Source: a virus
Lineage: Duplodnaviria; Heunggongvirae; Uroviricota; Caudoviricetes
Virus record (IMG/VR): IMGVR_UViG_2585427793_000007
Span: 1 to 5,297 of that record
Reading direction: 5' to 3' (one strand)
Length of the DNA stretch: 5,297 bases
Below are positions 1 to 5,297 of the stretch, one piece after another (positions within the stretch are counted from its first letter, which is position 1; each line of letters opens with the position of its first letter). A model generated the notes under the pieces. The model was not told the origin of the DNA, ran no database searches, and was given only the letters and a program-made list of their open reading frames with translations. The position numbers were made by a program, and so were the translations under genes.

Positions 1-969
1 CATAAAACTCTGTGAGACAGTCGTCCAGCTGTTTGTGTCGCTTTGTACGCCATTCTCTGTAATCGTTGCACCTGCATGGCTGCCATTTTTCACTTTCCAG
101 GCCAGGCAGTTATTGGGGGCATCAGCACCGCGGTAAGTGACCGAGGCCATAACAGCCACAACATCACTGTTGCTGTTATCCACCGCATCAAACGTGGCCT
201 GTGCTGCATTCAGGGACGGCGAGAGCATCAGATATCCGGCCTCGCTGTCAGAGGTGTTCAGCCCCGTGACAATATCTTTATTCAGTGAGTTTTTGGCGCT
301 TCCACCGGTAAATGCCGTTACCGGGCTGTATCTGACCTCAATGCTTCCGAGCAGGGCGGGTTCTGCACTATTATTTCTACCGTATGTCACTGTTCCACAG
401 TACATATCACCCAGCATTAACGTGCCGGATGCACCCGATGAAAAAATATTGTCACCACTACCAATACTCACCTGAATTTTGTCAGTCCGGTCATCTGATA
501 CATAAAACGATGCATTTCCAACTAATGAGCGGTTGCAGTACAGACTGGCTGAGACATAGCCGTTTTCGTTTCGCGTTGCGAAAATTTCATAGTAATAACT
601 GGCTGCTTCATCAGGATACGGGGTTGTAAATGAATAGCCATTAATCCTGATGTGGGATGGCGAAGATGAATATTTCTTTCCCGCACTTAATGTCAGACGA
701 AATCCCAGCTGTACAGCTGAGGCTTTTAAGTCCGGAAGTGTGCTGTACAGTGTGACATATGAGGGTGTCGTAAAAATCAGCCCCGTTCTTTCTACAGTAT
801 TTACGGCCTGAGTGCCACGACAGACGGATGTTACAGAACCGGACATATCATTGATAAGCGTGACACCGTTTTCGTTCAGTGCTGAAATAATATTTGTTGA
901 ATAATAGTTCTCGCACAATCCCTCATTCGCCGGAATTTGTCGGAACCCTTCCAGATTAATAATATTCAA
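1..969 (-). CDS. Hypothetical protein, partial (3' end beyond window start); possible distal tail-fibre / receptor-recognition component
   Basis: Minus-strand frame is open for 323 codons from 969 down to position 1 with no stop; a chance open frame of this length in ~45% GC DNA is very unlikely. Probable TTG start at 969..967, preceded by AAGGGG (revcomp of 976..981) with a 6-nt spacer; the first in-frame ATG (846..844) has no Shine-Dalgarno. Translation begins MNIINLEGFRQIPANEGLCENYYS and is S/T/N/G/Y-rich and non-repetitive. Not listed in the ORF track because its stop is off-window. I do not recognise the family; the fibre role is inferred from position only. Confidence 0.55.
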   Translation of the reverse strand, partial: MNIINLEGFRQIPANEGLCENYYSTNIISALNENGVTLINDMSGSVTSVCRGTQAVNTVERTGLIFTTPSYVTLYSTLPDLKASAVQLGFRLTLSAGKKYSSSPSHIRINGYSFTTPYPDEAASYYYEIFATRNENGYVSASLYCNRSLVGNASFYVSDDRTDKIQVSIGSGDNIFSSGASGTLMLGDMYCGTVTYGRNNSAEPALLGSIEVRYSPVTAFTGGSAKNSLNKDIVTGLNTSDSEAGYLMLSPSLNAAQATFDAVDNSNSDVVAVMASVTYRGADAPNNCLAWKVKNGSHAGATITENGVQSDTNSWTTVSQSFM

Positions 970-975
970 AATATT

Positions 976-981
976 CCCCTT
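976..981 (-). promoter_or_regulatory. Putative Shine-Dalgarno for the downstream ORF
   Basis: Minus strand reads TAA TAG AAACTAAAT AAGGGG AATATT TTG; the AAGGGG lies 6 nt before the TTG and 13 nt after the stf double stop, which suggests translational coupling. Confidence 0.4.
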
Positions 982-993
982 ATTTAGTTTCTA

Positions 994-2091
994 TTAAGCA
1001 GCAGATAAAACCGCAAACTGCAGTACTGCCCGATCTACTGTCAGTGGCTCATTGGTTTGATATGCTGGTACAAAGAAGGCTCTGTTAACTGCTACCGGCT
1101 CGCTCATCAGGAGTCCGGGTTGTAATTGCATGGTGTTAATGGTTATCGGTTCATGGGTGTTGCGCCCTGACTGAACAAATTTTCTGTTAATTGTTAAAGG
1201 CCCCCTTGTCTGTTCCCCGGACTGAAGCAGCACTCTGTTGATTTGCAGAGCGGGCTTTGGCGTTTCTGACGGAATTTCTGGTGGAATGACGGGCGCACCC
1301 TGAGAAGCCAGAGCCTCCGCGATTAACGCGCGTACAAATGCAGCATTGGCTATCTCATTACCGGATGCATCCGGTGGAGGTACTGGAGACATCGGGGTTC
1401 CCGTAAATTCAGGGCTGTCCAGCGATGCTTTTTTCTGCGTTTCATCCATCACTAACTTTACCGCCTTCGAGGTCGCTGCAAGCGTTTCTGACTCACTGTC
1501 CGTGGCGCTGCTCAGCCGCACAATCCCGTTGTGTTCCGTACTCGCATCCTCTGCAGTATATTTCCTGTCAGCGAGATCATATGCTGCTTTTACCGCCTTC
1601 GGGGTCGCTGCAAAATCTTCACTGCCGCTGTCCGTATCGCTGCTCAACTGCACCAACCCCTTTTGGGTTGTGGTGGCATCCATTGTTCTTATGCTGTCGA
1701 AAATCTTCTTTACACTTTCTGCATATTCGGCTGCCGCTTCCGCATTCGCCCTGGCGTGAGACACCAGTTCCTCAAGGTGGATTATCACTTCAGGCCTGGC
1801 ATTCTGCTCAGTGAATTTCAGTAAAAAATCATTCAGCGCCCCAGGCTGAGAATCTTCGTAAACGGTGATGTCCCCTATATTCGATGGTGGATAACCATCA
1901 ACCAACAGGGTGACGCTGTACTGTCCATACTCAACGTCCATACTGTAACGCCCGGTTTCATCCGATCTGACTGAAGCTACAGTACTTGCCAGCACCGTGG
2001 TGCTGTGACGCCTTGCCGTCAGCTGAATGATGCCATTCTGTATTGGTTTACCTGCACCGTCTTTCAGCACACCTGAAATCTTTACTGCCAT
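994..2091 (-). CDS. stf: Side tail fibre protein, Stf-like, short form of about 365 aa
   Basis: ATG at 2091..2089 preceded by GGGGAG (revcomp of 2097..2102) with a 5-nt spacer; the track's GTG start at 2097 is two codons upstream. N-terminus MAVKISGVLKDGAGKPIQNGIIQL...GRYSMDVEYGQYSVTLLVDGYPPS...ITVYEDSQPG closely matches the lambda Stf N-terminal domain as I remember it. Two copies of the phage tail-fibre repeat motif follow (GLVQLSSDTDSGSEDFAATPKAVKAAYD and GIVRLSSATDSESETLAATSKAVKLVMDETQKKASLDSP). Ends in a double stop, TAA at 996..994 then TAG. Confidence 0.8.
   Translation of the reverse strand: MAVKISGVLKDGAGKPIQNGIIQLTARRHSTTVLASTVASVRSDETGRYSMDVEYGQYSVTLLVDGYPPSNIGDITVYEDSQPGALNDFLLKFTEQNARPEVIIHLEELVSHARANAEAAAEYAESVKKIFDSIRTMDATTTQKGLVQLSSDTDSGSEDFAATPKAVKAAYDLADRKYTAEDASTEHNGIVRLSSATDSESETLAATSKAVKLVMDETQKKASLDSPEFTGTPMSPVPPPDASGNEIANAAFVRALIAEALASQGAPVIPPEIPSETPKPALQINRVLLQSGEQTRGPLTINRKFVQSGRNTHEPITINTMQLQPGLLMSEPVAVNRAFFVPAYQTNEPLTVDRAVLQFAVLSAA
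997..1248 (-). repeat. Five tandem in-frame 51-bp (17-codon) repeats forming the Stf C-terminus
   Basis: Translated units: LQINRVLLQSGEQTRGP / LTINRKFVQSGRNTHEP / ITINTMQLQPGLLMSEP / VAVNRAFFVPAYQTNEP / LTVDRAVLQFAVLSAA (last unit 16 aa). Conserved positions are hydrophobic-T-(I/V)-(N/D)-R, a central Q, a G/P/A turn, and a terminal E-P. DNA-level identity between units is only moderate, so this is an old protein-level periodicity, not a recent duplication. Confidence 0.7.
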
Positions 2092-2096
2092 ATTCA

Positions 2097-2102
2097 CTCC
2101 CC
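2097..2102 (-). promoter_or_regulatory. Putative Shine-Dalgarno for stf
   Basis: Minus strand reads GGGGAG TGAAT ATG, spacer 5 nt. Confidence 0.45.
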
Positions 2103-2133
2103 AAACAAAAAAGGCACCATTTCTGGTGCCCTT
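2103..2133 (-). terminator. Candidate rho-independent terminator between J and stf
   Basis: Minus strand reads AAGGGCACCA GAAA TGGTGCCTT TTTTGTTT: a 7-bp perfect GC-rich stem (GGCACCA/TGGTGCC), extendable to 9 bp with one G-U pair, a GAAA tetraloop, then a T-rich run. It sits 17 nt after the J stop and directly before the stf ribosome-binding site. Confidence 0.55.
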
Positions 2134-2149
2134 ATCCAGGTTATAAAAT

Positions 2150-4222
2150 TCAACTGATACTGATACCTGCTGTTGATTTCTTCATCACCACAACCAGTAA
2201 ATCGCTGATACTTGCTGTGGGATACCAGCCATTTACCAGCCAGGCTGACACAGAAAATTCCAGCCTCATGTGACCGTGACCGGCAGGCATATCAATAACG
2301 CCACTGTAAATCAGCGTATTATCCAGCGCAGTACGGTTATAAATTTCAGCACCGTTTTTCCGCACTATCAGACGGCATGAGGAGTAAATATCAGTATGAT
2401 TTCGCTCATGCTTAGCGCCGCTGAATGCCACCGCCGGAATAACAATCTGTCGGTCAAACGGCTGATCGTCATAAATCCTGACGGTAATGGTCCCTGATGG
2501 CCACCGTTCCGGTGCACGGGAGTCCCGGGGGAAAGCTTTACCCACTGTTTTAACGAGATCGCCTTCAATCTGGTTCGCGGACAGTTTTCCCAGAACCCGG
2601 CAGTTCTTGTTAATCGTGACGTTGTTGAGCGTCCCGGCGTTCGCATTCACGTTACCGCTGATATCCGCATTTCTCGCCGTCAGTCGCCCGTCCGGTGTCA
2701 GGGAAAATGCCGGAGGATTGCCACCACTGGTAATGGTGGGGGCCGTCAGGCGTTTCAGGAACACGTCATTCATGAATATCTGATCACCCTGCGCCACAAA
2801 CATCGGCGTTTCATTTCCGTTTGCCGGGTCAATAAACGCGATACGGTTAGCGGCAACCAGGAACTGGCTCAGTTTACCTTCCTCCGTGTCCTCCATGCTG
2901 AGGCCAATACCCGCGACATAATGTTTGCCGTCTTTGGTCTGCTCAATTTTGACGCCCCACATGGCATTCCATTTATCGTTGGCATCTTTCCACTCTTTCG
3001 AAAACTCCTCCAGTTTGCTGGCGTTATCCTCCGTCAACTCGACTTTTCCCAGCAGCTCTTTACCGAGATGGGATTCGGTTATCTGGCCTTTGAAAAAATC
3101 CAGGTAACCTTCGGCATCATCGCTCGCCCGACCGACAGCCTCCACAAATGCCGATTTGCCAACGGTGTTCACACTGCGGATGTAAAAATAATAATCATGG
3201 CCCGGCCTGATATTGATACTGGCAGCTATCCAGTACAGCGCCGTGCCAAGATAGCGCGCTGTGGTTTCAACCTGTCTGATATCCGCAATCCGCTTTTCCG
3301 AGAACCAGAATTCAAACTGTACCGTCGGGTCATAAACGGCAAGATGCGGCGTGGCGGTTATCTGAAAATAGCCCGGCGTCAGCTCAATCCGCGACGGCGC
3401 TGCCGGTGCGGCAATCCGGAACGATACCGATGCAGGATCGCCCTGCTGCCCCCAGGCATTTGCCGCCCGGACTGTCAGCCTGTAGCTTCCCAGCGCCAGC
3501 TGCCTGAAGCGGTATGTGGTTTCCGTCGTCCGGGCCGTGCTGACCAGCCGCTCACTGCCGTCATCCGCTGCCACGGTCAGGCGAAGCATAAAGCTCACGC
3601 CCTTCACCACCTTCGGTGTGTCCCATCGCGCCAGCACCTGATATTCCCCGCTGTCTGCAGTGACTTCTGCGGTCAGGTGCTGCACCGCTGGCGGCGTGAC
3701 ACCATTCACCGTGCCACTCTGTTCGCCGTCAAAGTGCGCCCCGTTATCCACGATGGCCTCTTTTTCCGGCACATGCTGCACGGCGGTGATGGCATACGTG
3801 CCGTCGTCGTTCTCACGGATACTCACGCAGCGGAACAGTCGCTGGCGCAGCGTCGGCAGCTTCAGCCCCCATACGCTGTATTCAGCAACACCGTCAGGAA
3901 CACGGCTCACTTTTACCTTCACGTCGTCGGTGACGGACTGAACCTCCACGCTGACCGGATTGCCACTTCCGTCAACCAGGCTTATCAGCGTGGTACCGGA
4001 GGATGGCAGCGTGATTTCACGGTCGAGCGTCAGCGTCCGGGTCTGGCTGTTCACCGCCAGCACACGACCACCGGTGCTGATACCGGCATAGTCATCATCA
4101 CAGATTTCAATAACATCGCCCGGTACATGGCGAAGCCCTTCTGCGCCGACGCTGAAATCCACGGTCTGCGTTTCCAGCAGTTCTGTTTTAATCAGCCACA
4201 GCCCGGCGCGGTGTGCCTGCCC
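2150..4222 (-). pseudogene. J: Tail-tip host-specificity protein J, C-terminal ~690 codons; 5' part separated by IS186 insertion
   Basis: Continuous 691-codon frame ending at TGA 2152..2150. Translation is typical of lambda J-family central tail fibre proteins, with fibronectin-III-like segments and a C-terminal receptor-binding region ending ...[24 protein letters not shown].... J-family proteins are about 1100 aa or more, so roughly 400 N-terminal codons are missing. The track's ATG at 4225..4223 is the revcomp of the CAT that begins the IS186 terminus, and the frame hits a stop inside IS sequence 18 codons further up (TAA, revcomp of 4280..4282), so it is not a native start. Confidence 0.8.
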
Positions 4223-4245
4223 CATAAGCGCTAACTTAAGGGTTG
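4223..4245. repeat. IS186 terminal inverted repeat (one end)
   Basis: CATAAGCGCTAACTTAAGGGTTG at the boundary where the J frame breaks. The partner repeat is off-window, so the assignment rests on memory of the IS186 terminus rather than an observed pair. Confidence 0.5.
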
Positions 4246-4393
4246 AACCATCTGAAGAATGCGACGCCTCGGTGCCTCGTTAAGACGATGCCTCGCGTTC
4301 TTCAATTGCGTTTTGTAGGCTGTCAGGGATACTGTCCCACGAATGGCCACCTGTAAGCTCCAGATGACCATTTTTGTTATTCTCCACAACGAG

Positions 4394-5297
4394 TTAGTTC
4401 TTCTTTTCGGATCCGGCACTTCTGGGGGGGAAATCCAGCGATGGCTGGATTATGTCGTCAATTAAAAATGCGGCGAGTAGATTAGCAAATATCCACGCTT
4501 TCGCGAGTTCAGGTTCCTTTGCACGCAAAGCATCCAGGTGCAGCAAACTTTTGAGCCGCTTAAAAGCCAGTTCAATTTGCCATCGCAGACGGTAACAATC
4601 AGCCACTTGCTCTGCTGAATATTCATCTTCCGGTAATGATGTTAGCAATAGCACATGGCCCGCTGCTTCCAGCGTTTCCGCCTGAACTACTCGTCCTTTT
4701 CGACGATTCTCGCTGAGCAGTCGGGTTTTACTGATTAATGCTTTTTCGGGAGGAAGTGATACGGCAATGAGACGTGCCGGAAAGGGAGCTCCGGCTTTTT
4801 TATTACCTGAATTGCCTATCATTACAGTGGTTTCACCGTTCTTACCGCAATCCAGCCCGCGCAGAAAACCCATCATGTCAAAGCGCATTCCTTCTGCAGT
4901 TAACCAGCGCAATCCTCGCCAGTGAACCCGGACGATATAATCAGCTTCTCCAAAAGCAAGTGAGCGGATACATTCGGGACGCGAACCGAATCCCCGGTCA
5001 GCAATGCGTATCTCGTCTGCCGTTTGCGCAAATCGGTCCAGCCGTTCAGCGTCTCTGCTGTCGGTTAGCTCAAAATCAGTGAACTGACAGGTATGAGGAT
5101 CATATCCCATATGTAGTCGCCATTCAGCGCTGCCGCCCCCGGGCGCACTGATTGCTGTTCCATCGACAAGACGCAATCTCTTTCCGCTTGTACAACCCGT
5201 AACTGCGGCGCGTACAGCAAGTGTTTGTGCGGCAAGTATGCCAAACCAGTCGGCGGCATTCCGCAGCCGCTTCAGGAGAGCCACGTCAGATAATGTT
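4394..5297 (-). CDS. insL: IS186 transposase InsL (IS4 family, DDE), partial; 5' end beyond window end
   Basis: Frame is open from the window edge (…TLSD-VALLKRLRNAADWFGILAAQTLAVRAAVTG…) to TAA at 4396..4394. The C-terminal region CYRLRWQIELAFKRLK resembles the conserved Y-R-E-K-type C-terminal signature of IS4-family DDE transposases. The track's Met at 5284 is an internal GTG; the real start is upstream of the window. Confidence 0.85.
   Translation of the reverse strand, partial: TLSDVALLKRLRNAADWFGILAAQTLAVRAAVTGCTSGKRLRLVDGTAISAPGGGSAEWRLHMGYDPHTCQFTDFELTDSRDAERLDRFAQTADEIRIADRGFGSRPECIRSLAFGEADYIVRVHWRGLRWLTAEGMRFDMMGFLRGLDCGKNGETTVMIGNSGNKKAGAPFPARLIAVSLPPEKALISKTRLLSENRRKGRVVQAETLEAAGHVLLLTSLPEDEYSAEQVADCYRLRWQIELAFKRLKSLLHLDALRAKEPELAKAWIFANLLAAFLIDDIIQPSLDFPPRSAGSEKKN

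What the first reader, a model, noticed from the sequence alone, without database searches (positions are those of the whole stretch)
1..969. Unrecognised S/T/N/G/Y-rich protein of at least 323 aa downstream of stf: candidate receptor-recognition module
A long open frame, translationally coupled to stf, sits where lambda carries the small Tfa chaperone, but it is much longer than a Tfa (~190 aa) and the recalled Tfa N-terminus does not match. Its composition and apparent lack of a signal peptide resemble distal fibre or adhesin domains. It is cut by the window edge, so its C-terminus, where specificity determinants and any variability would lie, is not visible.
Basis: partly seen in the sequence, partly recalled or inferred. 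Interest (0 to 1): 0.5.

Follow-up and report, generated by a model that had tools for sequence, protein, structure and literature searches.

The report
Lectin-like phage tail accessory protein
The open frame is a real, conserved prophage gene for a 349-residue lectin-fold protein that always travels with a short repeat "tail" on whichever phage tail protein precedes it, so it is most likely a plug-on host-recognition head, from a rare family that nobody has characterised.

Summary
The ORF is real. It lies on the minus strand at 969→1, with a TTG start and its own Shine-Dalgarno. It is 323 codons long here and 349 aa in 99%-identical E. coli prophages, so only 26 aa are missing. It is under purifying selection (dN/dS about 0.2). 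It is not a Tfa: in intact relatives a separate 369-aa fibre gene and a 176-aa Tfa gene follow it.

No Pfam, NCBIfam, PADLOC or PDB sequence match was found. The only family match is PHROG 8291, of unknown function. The family is tiny: 18 representatives among 1.84 billion proteins.

AlphaFold (pLDDT 90) gives a concanavalin-A/LamG-like jelly roll plus a second beta-sandwich. Full-length fold analogues are proteins of Casjensviridae-type phages, one of them detected by mass spectrometry in Achromobacter phage AchV4 virions.

The main finding is synteny. In all 12 architectures examined, the gene's operon encodes a protein ending in a 17-19-residue tandem repeat. This protein is an Stf N-terminus, a tail-collar stub, Mu gp48, P2 gpI or a small free-standing protein. 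The terminal motif of the repeat co-varies with the clade of the gene.

Best reading (0.55): a virion-borne lectin-like adhesin that docks on this portable repeat tail. In this window the prophage is defective, because an IS cuts J.

The parts
1..969 (-). Gene X, codons 1-323 of 349. Predicted concanavalin-A/LamG-like jelly roll (about residues 1-200) plus a second beta-sandwich (about 250-347). The last 26 codons lie beyond window position 1.
974..981 (-). Shine-Dalgarno-like AAGGGGAA. Its last G lies 6 nt upstream of the TTG start at 969.
   Evidence: Read from the sequence. PGAP uses the same start in L001 and L069.
970..993 (-). 24-nt spacer between the stf stop (TAA, 996-994) and the start of gene X. 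The genes do not overlap.
994..2097 (-). Anchor gene: a truncated side-tail-fibre protein (Stf N-terminal part, 367 aa from GTG, 365 aa from the ATG that PGAP uses). It contains phage_tail_N, two Phage_fiber_2 repeats and the conserved '...NAAFVRALIAEA' junction, followed by the repeat tail.
   Evidence: Pfam, PHROGs. Only 5 clusters among 3984 Stf-like hits cover the whole protein including the tail.
997..1260 (-). Repeat tail, Stf residues 280-367. It has five 17-residue units (PKPALQINRVLLQSGEQ / TRGPLTINRKFVQSGRN / THEPITINTMQLQPGLL / MSEPVAVNRAFFVPAYQ / TNEPLTVDRAVLQFAVL) followed by SAA. This is the proposed docking module for gene X.
   Evidence: Lag-17 self-similarity z = 9.5, with 0 of 5000 shuffles reaching it. 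The same kind of tail lies upstream of X in all contexts examined. No Pfam or PDB match.

Best explanation
Gene X most likely encodes a virion-borne accessory adhesin. It is a globular protein with a lectin-type (concanavalin-A/LamG-like) jelly roll and a second beta-sandwich. It is not covalently part of a fibre. I propose that it is recruited to the tail by docking non-covalently on a dedicated module: a tandem array of 17-19-residue units ending in a short hydrophobic strand (here ...LQFAVLSAA). In this window that array forms the C-terminus of the truncated Stf encoded just upstream.

The pair 'repeat tail + X' behaves as a portable cassette. The tail has been grafted onto lambdoid Stf N-termini, P2-type tail-collar stubs, the Mu baseplate wedge protein gp48 and the P2 wedge protein gpI, and it also exists as a small free-standing protein. 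Once on the particle, the lectin-like domain would bind a surface glycan (LPS or capsule). That would add or replace a side-fibre specificity, while J makes the irreversible contact.

What is shown:
- The gene is real and under purifying selection.
- The fold is lectin-like.
- X strictly co-occurs with repeat tails on unrelated anchors.
- The X clade co-varies with the tail terminus.
- A fold analogue is present in AchV4 virions.

What is inferred:
- Physical docking of X on the tail.
- Stoichiometry.
- Glycan binding.
- An effect on host range.

In this particular genome the prophage is defective, because J is cut by an IS, so the module is probably not being assembled into particles.
For: 1. 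Real gene: 323 open codons, its own SD and TTG start; dN/dS 0.16-0.22; intact 349-aa CDS in 99% identical prophages.

3. Virion analogues: full-length BFVD matches have TM 0.6-0.67 and E down to 1.5e-14. The top one, at 352 aa, equals AchV4_0026, which was detected in virions by LC-MS/MS (14 peptides). It sits after the J-like protein and a short fibre (PMC7996906).

4. Synteny: in 28 of 30 informative loci, X directly follows a protein ending in the repeat tail. In the other two the tail-bearing gp48 is two genes upstream. Anchors are phage_tail_N, Phage_tail_fib, Phage_Mu_Gp48 and Tail_P2_I. The rule holds for X relatives down to 18-28% identity.

5. Converse test: of 19 genuine 'NHxGLHFAV' tails in IMG/VR, 18 are on contigs that carry X and one is at a contig end.

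6. Covariation: X subgroup A tails end L[HQNS]FA[VF]... Subgroup B tails end YGYLLVTEV, YGVMMISSEV or SGVMLVSSEV, whether on gpI or on a free 65-aa protein. Subgroup C tails end LNALTESEV or LSVLRSTDV.

7. Add-on nature: cultured phages phiP27 and SfV have a gp48 of about 195 aa, followed directly by the fibre and Tfa, with no tail and no X.

8. X can be the last tail gene, with no fibre or Tfa after it (L002/4/15, L031, L035, L043, L072). This fits a terminal binding unit.
Against: - No direct evidence that X is in any virion of its own family. No cultured phage among 50,697 genomes carries a sequence homologue.
- Docking is inferred from gene order only.
- Nearly identical X proteins (about 99%) are paired with clearly different subgroup-A tails, Stf-type versus gp48-type, which share only 36-40% identity in the last two repeats. 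Recognition, if real, must therefore rest on the short shared motif.
- gp48 and gpI are single-copy per wedge whereas Stf is trimeric (PMC11915804). One docking mode has to work with one chain or with three.
- The 64-65-aa free-standing proteins show no statistically significant periodicity.
- Sequence-level homology to the AchV4 proteins is weak (hhalign E 0.12 to 6e-4, probability 28% or less).
- A lectin fold does not prove glycan binding.
Confidence: 0.55

Rival explanations
1. X is a connector ('knee' or adaptor) rather than an adhesin. It would join the repeat tail of the anchor to the N-terminus of the short distal fibre encoded downstream. The mature side fibre would then be Stf-N / X / 369-aa fibre, with Tfa as chaperone, by analogy with T4 gp34-gp35-gp36/37 (own knowledge).
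For: In the window's lineage, X is followed by a 369-aa fibre and a Tfa. The block X-fibre-Tfa is about 99% identical between lambdoid and Mu-like prophages, so it moves as one unit. In cultured phages this 'MHRIDTPTA' fibre type follows the gp48-like baseplate wedge gene directly, and in Mu the fibre N-terminus docks on a gp48 loop. A lambdoid tail lacks gp48, so something else would have to hold the fibre there.
Against: X occurs with no fibre or Tfa after it in several architectures (L002/4/15, L031, L035, L043, L072). In the P2-like locus the downstream fibre has its own tail-collar attachment domain. The downstream fibres have at least four unrelated N-termini while the X N-terminus is conserved. 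In L012 the order is tail-fibre-Tfa-X.
Confidence: 0.2
2. X is an assembly factor for the repeat-tailed anchor. It would be a chaperone that folds or caps the repeat array, functionally replacing Tfa at the position where lambda has tfa. It need not contribute to receptor binding or stay on the particle.
For: It occupies the Tfa position immediately after a fibre gene and is the last tail gene in several lambdoid loci. It strictly co-occurs with the repeat tail. Known Tfa-type chaperones can also remain bound to fibre tips (own knowledge).
Against: There is no similarity to Caudo_TAP/Tfa by HMM. The size and lectin-type two-domain fold are unlike known fibre chaperones. The fold analogue AchV4_0026 is a virion component with 14 peptides detected. 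Surface loops are variable, as expected for a protein exposed to selection by hosts.
Confidence: 0.1
3. X is a virion-associated enzyme (polysaccharide lyase or glycosidase) that degrades capsule or O-antigen.
Against: The same scores are obtained for non-catalytic lectins and CBM-type sandwiches. Identities are 4-15%. The residues invariant across the family (G63, G89, R91, Y126, E128, N146, D188, Y190, G208, V217, L247) fall in the 'YYYEIF', 'LYCNR' and 'GDMY' strands. By my own reading, these mirror the structural core motifs of LamG-type domains rather than a known catalytic set. The only HMM signal is Laminin_G_3.
Confidence: 0.08
4. X is a non-structural lysogenic-conversion or defence gene (a 'moron') that merely sits in the fibre region.
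For: Fibre-proximal regions of prophages are known hotspots for such cargo (own knowledge). No cultured phage has a sequence homologue.
Against: It lies inside the tail operon on the same strand, between anchor and fibre, with tight spacing (1-24 nt) and no promoter-like site of its own. There is no PADLOC match. There is no signal peptide or membrane segment. It is conserved across sipho- and myovirus-type tails together with the repeat tail.
Confidence: 0.05

Closest known systems
AchV4_0025/0026/0027 and their relatives in Casjensviridae-type siphophages (Serratia JS26, Providencia Kokobel1/Stilesk, Cronobacter JC01, Proteus Saba)
   Same: They share the size (316-377 aa) and the two-domain fold over the full length (Foldseek TM 0.6-0.67, E to 1.5e-14). 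The N-terminal motif is similar (MIRFMDGFDQ / MAIIDLEGFE versus MNIINLEGFRQ). They lie after the J-like tip protein and a short fibre. AchV4_0025 and 0026 are virion proteins by LC-MS/MS.
   Different: Identity is only 12-17% and profile comparison is not significant. They occur as two or three tandem paralogues. No 17-residue repeat tail is seen on the preceding AchV4 fibre; instead a 578-aa repeat-rich protein (0028) follows them. Their function is also unknown.
T2/S16-type gp38 adhesin that caps the tip of the gp37 long tail fibre (own knowledge)
   Same: The logic is the same: a separately encoded, non-fibrous adhesin attaches non-covalently to the end of a fibre protein encoded just upstream and supplies receptor specificity.
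   Different: The fold is unrelated. X has no glycine-rich motifs (Gly 8.4%) and is a jelly roll plus sandwich. The docking partner here is a tandem repeat array that is also found on baseplate wedge proteins.
Carbohydrate-binding (LamG/ConA-like, CBM) accessory modules of phage adhesion devices, such as BppA of lactococcal phage Tuc2009 and CBM insertions in Dit/Tal (own knowledge; reviewed in PMC7291167, which I did not read in detail)
   Same: A lectin-type beta-sandwich is added to a tail to bind saccharides. It is an optional add-on rather than a core component.
   Different: Those modules are domains inside baseplate proteins, or proteins of Gram-positive phage baseplates. X is a free-standing protein of enterobacterial prophages with a dedicated repeat docking partner.
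T4 gp35 hinge protein between the proximal (gp34) and distal (gp36/gp37) half-fibres (own knowledge)
   Same: The gene order is similar: proximal fibre / roughly 350-aa non-fibrous protein / distal fibre / chaperone.
   Different: X is often terminal with no distal fibre. No comparison with gp35 was run here.
Lambda Tfa / P2 gpG (Caudo_TAP) tail-fibre assembly proteins
   Same: The position immediately downstream of stf.
   Different: There is no HMM match. X is twice the size and has a different fold. A genuine Tfa (176 aa, PHROG 136, E 9e-55) lies two genes further on.

Membership tests
PHROG 8291 (phage protein family of unknown function) | Full-length match to the family HMM | tested here: met
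   E 7.7e-242, residues 1-349 on profile positions 1-349 of 349.
Tail fibre assembly protein (Tfa; Caudo_TAP PF02413, PHROG 136) | HMM match to Caudo_TAP/Tfa families, and a size of about 175-200 aa | tested here: not met
   No Pfam, PHROG or NCBIfam Tfa hit for X. X is 349 aa. The real Tfa is a separate gene downstream.
Trimeric tail fibre / side tail fibre (Stf) distal part | Fibre repeats or domains (Phage_fiber_2, collar, Gp53-like_C, beta-helix shaft), or a match to tail-fibre PHROGs | tested here: not met
   No fibre family matches X. The model is globular with two beta-sandwich domains and is confidently folded as a monomer. The flanking genes do match fibre families.
Concanavalin A-like lectin/glucanase superfamily (LamG-type, Pfam Laminin_G_3 PF13385) | Jelly-roll beta-sandwich fold of the superfamily | tested here: met
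Concanavalin A-like lectin/glucanase superfamily (LamG-type, Pfam Laminin_G_3 PF13385) | Sequence match above the Pfam threshold | tested here: not met
   The window protein and P0001 give no hit. Only 3 of 26 members hit Laminin_G_3, with best E 1.6e-4.
Concanavalin A-like lectin/glucanase superfamily (LamG-type, Pfam Laminin_G_3 PF13385) | Carbohydrate (or other ligand) binding at the concave face or loops | not testable with these tools
   This needs a glycan array or binding assay, or at least coordinates and docking.
Polysaccharide lyases / glycoside hydrolases with this fold (PL7, PL14, GH16, GH131) | Conserved catalytic residues of the respective family in the cleft | tested here: inconclusive
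   There is fold similarity only and no HMM match to any such family. The invariant E128 and D188 exist, but they lie in motifs typical of the LamG structural core. No structural superposition of the residues was possible.
T2/S16 gp38-type fibre-tip adhesin | Glycine-rich motif sandwich with hypervariable segments in the C-terminal domain | tested here: not met
   There are no glycine-rich motifs in the sequence (Gly 8.4%). The family profile has no PDB sequence match at E up to 10, and phmmer with one member gave only two E 1.6 hits to an unrelated Frv protein. Variability is spread over both domains.
Anti-phage defence proteins (PADLOC-DB) | Match to any defence-system HMM | tested here: not met
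   No hit at E up to 0.1 for X or for two distant relatives.

The most novel reading that the evidence does not exclude
The 17-19-residue repeat array may be a general, portable 'socket strip'. Each unit, or pair of units, would bind one copy of the lectin-like protein, so any tail protein that acquires the strip becomes a multivalent glycan-binding brush. That applies to a siphovirus side-fibre stub, a myovirus baseplate wedge protein, or a small free protein. Copy-number changes in the strip (4-7 units, near-identical in some loci) would tune valency. This would be a previously undescribed plug-and-socket system for host-range exchange across phage morphotypes. It may be related to the X-like paralogues plus repeat-rich protein of Casjensviridae.
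Probability: 0.25. Interest if true: 0.75.

Novelty: new variant of a known kind. Interest (0 to 1): 0.55.

Why it matters
Host recognition modules decide which bacteria a phage or tailocin can attack, and they are the parts engineers swap. This work points to an uncharacterised two-part module: a repeat tail plus a lectin-fold protein. Nature appears to have grafted it onto at least four unrelated tail proteins (Stf, tail-collar fibre, Mu gp48, P2 gpI).

If the docking is real, it offers a compact, transferable way to add a glycan-binding head to lambdoid, Mu-like and P2-like tails. It would also explain a class of truncated stf genes and over-long gp48/gpI genes that annotation pipelines currently flag as odd or as pseudogenes (PGAP marks the extended YmfQ as incomplete). 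Finally, it gives a testable function to PHROG 8291 and, by fold, to the unexplained 35-kDa virion proteins of Casjensviridae.

If the docking is not real, the finding reduces to an ordinary hypothetical tail-region protein with a lectin fold.

Tried and rejected
1. Tfa identity was rejected. There is no HMM match, and a real Tfa lies downstream.

2. Sequence searches for a known family found nothing beyond PHROG 8291. These covered Pfam, NCBIfam, PADLOC, and PDB by phmmer and by family profile.

3. tblastn of X and of two distant relatives against 50,697 cultured phage genomes gave no match.

4. Searching the 5.8-billion-protein set with the 88-aa repeat tail alone returned nothing, probably a limit of the word index. 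tblastn of the tail against the phage collection also found nothing. Pfam and PDB searches with tails gave only noise, for example PEX14 at E 0.005, which I judge spurious.

A first DNA pattern had too few specified bases. The second pattern worked.

7. AF2 of the window's Stf with a 6-sequence alignment gave pLDDT 33.6, so it says nothing about the fold of the repeat tail.

8. The afdb50 fold library was unavailable.

9. The idea that the tail is a homotrimeric adenovirus-like triple beta-spiral arose from the PLTIN / GPLVIN motifs (own recollection). I set it aside as a general explanation, because the same tail sits on gp48 and gpI, which are single-copy per wedge. It remains possible for the Stf and tail-collar anchors.

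10. A hypervariable C-terminus was not found.

11. hhalign of the family profile against AchV4_0025-0027 was too weak to claim sequence homology.

12. Literature searches for the family, its accessions or this architecture found nothing.

Full report
**1. The observation**

All long ORFs in the window lie on the minus strand. From high to low coordinates they are:
- an IS4-family transposase (4394-5284);
- the C-terminal 691 residues of the tail-tip protein J (2150-4225);
- a 367-aa stf-type gene (994-2097; phage_tail_N plus two Phage_fiber_2 repeats);
- the reported frame, 969->1.

The reported frame is 323 uninterrupted codons that run off the window. It starts with TTG at 969. An AAGGGGAA Shine-Dalgarno lies at 981-974, and 24 nt separate it from the stf stop. 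The two genes are therefore adjacent but do not overlap. S+T+N+G+Y make up 44.6% of residues, and the N-terminus has no signal-like segment.

**2. Completing the gene**

The first 1100 nt of the window match 58 of 5426 complete E. coli genomes, at best 99.6%. In strains 100248 and TD225-C4 the CDS is intact and 349 aa long, so only 26 residues are missing from the window.

In those prophages the order is J (intact) - Stf-N - X (349 aa) - a 369-aa 'phage tail protein' - a 176-aa Tfa - prophage end (tRNA-Ser in TD225-C4; IS66 and tail-gene remnants in 100248). The 369-aa protein matches tail-fibre PHROGs and the 176-aa protein matches PHROG 136 (Tfa). So X is not the Tfa.

In the window itself, homology to J stops at 4223, where the IS begins. 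This copy of the prophage is therefore defective.

**3. Is X a real gene, and what family is it?**

Against homologues at increasing divergence, dN/dS is 0.20 (dS 0.20), 0.22 (0.91), 0.16 (1.78) and 0.19 (2.1). That is clear purifying selection.

X has no Pfam, NCBIfam, PADLOC or PDB sequence match. Its only family is PHROG 8291, of unknown function, matched end to end.

The family is very small:
- 29 clusters at 90% identity among 5.8 billion proteins, nearly all E. coli plus Raoultella;
- 18 representatives at 50% identity among 1.84 billion proteins in an exhaustive profile search;
- no homologue in 50,697 cultured phage genomes.

**4. Fold**

AlphaFold2 with the family alignment gives a confident model (pLDDT 90, pTM 0.89). 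It is all-beta, with an N-terminal sandwich of about 200 residues and a second sandwich of about 100 residues.

- Foldseek against the PDB gives legume lectins and the botulinum Hc domain, at domain level only.
- Three family members give weak Laminin_G_3 hits.
- Variability is spread over loops of both domains. The C-terminus is not hypervariable.

**5. Virion analogues**

Foldseek against predicted viral structures finds full-length analogues (TM 0.6-0.67, E to 1.5e-14). They are the same size as X and come from Achromobacter phage AchV4, Serratia JS26 (three paralogues), Providencia, Cronobacter, Proteus and Hafnia phages.

The top hit (352 aa, 'virion structural protein') corresponds by length and name to AchV4_0026. 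That gene lies after the J-like protein and a short fibre, and its product was detected in purified virions by LC-MS/MS (PMC7996906). Its neighbours 0025 and 0027 share the X-like N-terminal motif. Profile comparison is too weak to claim sequence homology, so I treat these as fold analogues and possible remote relatives.

**6. The key finding: a repeat tail always accompanies X**

The window's Stf ends with five 17-residue units (residues 280-367, window 997-1260). The lag-17 self-similarity has z = 9.5, and none of 5000 shuffles reach it.

I examined 27 IMG/VR loci, four E. coli/E. albertii loci, and the contexts of eight divergent or distant X relatives. The results were:

| Anchor type | Loci |
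|---|---|
| X directly follows a protein ending in such a tail | 28 of 30 informative loci |
| Tail-bearing gene two genes upstream (order tail-fibre-Tfa-X) | the other two loci |
| Stf N-terminus (phage_tail_N) | window, L001, L028-31, L071, L072, L074 |
| P2-type tail-collar stub of 285 aa | L002/4/15 |
| Mu baseplate wedge protein gp48, extended from about 195 aa to 307-396 aa | L003, L005-27 |
| P2 wedge protein gpI, extended to 300 aa with 18-residue units | L032, L073 |
| Small free-standing protein of 64-90 aa | L035, L043, L039, L041 |

Periodicity is highly significant for the fused tails and for the 90-aa protein of L039. It is not significant for the 64-65-aa proteins or the L041 protein.

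Repeat number varies from 2 to 7, and some arrays are near-identical copies (L022, L072). The tail has no Pfam or PDB counterpart.

As a converse test, a degenerate DNA pattern for one tail subtype was scanned in IMG/VR. It found 19 genuine tails. Eighteen are on contigs that carry X, one is at a contig end, and six further hits were chance.

**7. Covariation, and evidence that the pair is an add-on**

The terminal motif of the tail tracks the X clade rather than the anchor:
- Subgroup A tails end L[HQNS]FA[VF].. on Stf, tail-collar and gp48 anchors.
- Subgroup B (P0032, P0034, P0035) tails end YGYLLVTEV, YGVMMISSEV or SGVMLVSSEV, on gpI and on a free 65-aa protein.
- Subgroup C (P0043, P0044) tails end LNALTESEV or LSVLRSTDV.

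Cultured relatives without X (phiP27, SfV) have a normal-length gp48 followed directly by the same type of fibre and a Tfa. In Mu, gp48 is one copy per wedge and holds the fibre through an internal loop (PMC11915804). So 'repeat tail + X' is an insertion into an otherwise complete attachment apparatus.

X can also be the last tail gene, with no fibre or Tfa after it.

**8. Interpretation**

The simplest account is that X is a lectin-like accessory adhesin that docks on the repeat tail and so becomes part of the tail. In the window's lineage this would replace the usual covalent distal half of Stf. I give this 0.55.

The main rival (0.2) is that X is a connector between the tail and the downstream short fibre. 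It is attractive for the lambdoid context, where the Mu-type fibre has no gp48 to sit on. It is contradicted by the many loci where X is terminal, or where the fibre has its own attachment domain.

The other rivals are less likely, for the reasons listed under each:
- an assembly-factor role (0.1);
- an enzymatic role (0.08);
- a non-structural cargo gene (0.05).

Docking, stoichiometry and ligand are inferences. I could not model the complex, and the Stf monomer model was uninformative.

**9. Comparison with known systems, and novelty**

- By position, X resembles Tfa, but it fails every Tfa criterion.
- By logic, it resembles the gp38 adhesin of T2/S16-type phages and the carbohydrate-binding add-ons of lactococcal phage baseplates (own knowledge). 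Its fold and partner differ from both.
- By fold, it belongs to the ConA/LamG superfamily and resembles unexplained virion proteins of Casjensviridae.

Accessory lectin-like receptor-binding proteins are a known kind. The dedicated, portable repeat-tail partner shared across sipho- and myovirus tails appears undescribed in the literature I could search. I rate it a new variant of a known kind, with interest 0.55.

Noticed in passing
window 4224-5297: An IS4-family element (transposase ORF 4394-5284 on the minus strand, whose N-terminal ~100 residues lie beyond the window end) interrupts gene J. Homology to intact J genes stops at 4223, leaving only the C-terminal 691 of about 1131 residues. 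The prophage in this genome is therefore defective.
   Followed up: partly
window 2098-2149, hairpin at 2133-2110 (minus strand): A strong terminator-like hairpin (10-bp stem, then a T-run) lies between the J stop and the stf start. No lom gene is present there, although some relatives carry an Ail/Lom gene at this spot. How stf and X are transcribed past the hairpin is unclear.
   Followed up: no
L003 5019-5978 (E. coli UTAK-3) and similar loci: PGAP annotates the gp48/YmfQ gene that carries the repeat tail as a pseudogene ('incomplete; missing C-terminus'), although the 319-codon frame is intact. The repeat extension seems to confuse the annotation model.
   Followed up: partly
L003, L012, L018 and P0049 tails: gp48-type tails contain the terminal-like motif twice. 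An internal '...HFAV[VI]P.L' follows the first two repeats, and another occurs at the very end. This looks like a duplicated module and may mean two docking sites.
   Followed up: no
L020, L021, L022; L072 3945-4979: Repeat copy number differs between close relatives (4 or 5 units), and some arrays are nearly identical copies (EPLSINRLYLQSGAKTQ x4). This points to recent expansion and contraction by slippage or recombination.
   Followed up: no
L070 19255-20991 (Achromobacter phage AchV4 gene 0028): A 578-aa protein immediately after the three X-like paralogues is strongly repetitive, with periods of about 19 and about 25 residues (0 of 2000 shuffles reach either). It was not among the MS-detected virion proteins. 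It may be the counterpart of the repeat tail in that phage family.
   Followed up: partly
L074 3740-4978: One anchor combines an Stf-like N-terminus, a long collagen-like Gly-X-Y run and only two tail repeats. It sits in a contig whose head and neck genes include an SU10_adaptor domain, which is a further phage type carrying X.
   Followed up: no
L014 9081-10967: In one IMG/VR prophage the 369-aa fibre gene downstream of X is split into a 93-aa and a 262-aa frame by about 800 nt of inserted or rearranged DNA. This is another sign that many carriers are decaying.
   Followed up: no
L002 2989-7190 (E. coli 47258), also L004 and L015: This myovirus-type prophage encodes two fibre systems side by side: a full 566-aa tail-collar fibre with its Tfa, then a 285-aa tail-collar stub with the repeat tail and X. 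The two anchors presumably compete for, or share, baseplate sites.
   Followed up: no
E. coli genomes matched: Genomes that carry the stf-end/X segment hold a median of 2 and up to 5 matching places, four of them on plasmids. I did not determine whether these are full extra copies or fragments.
   Followed up: no
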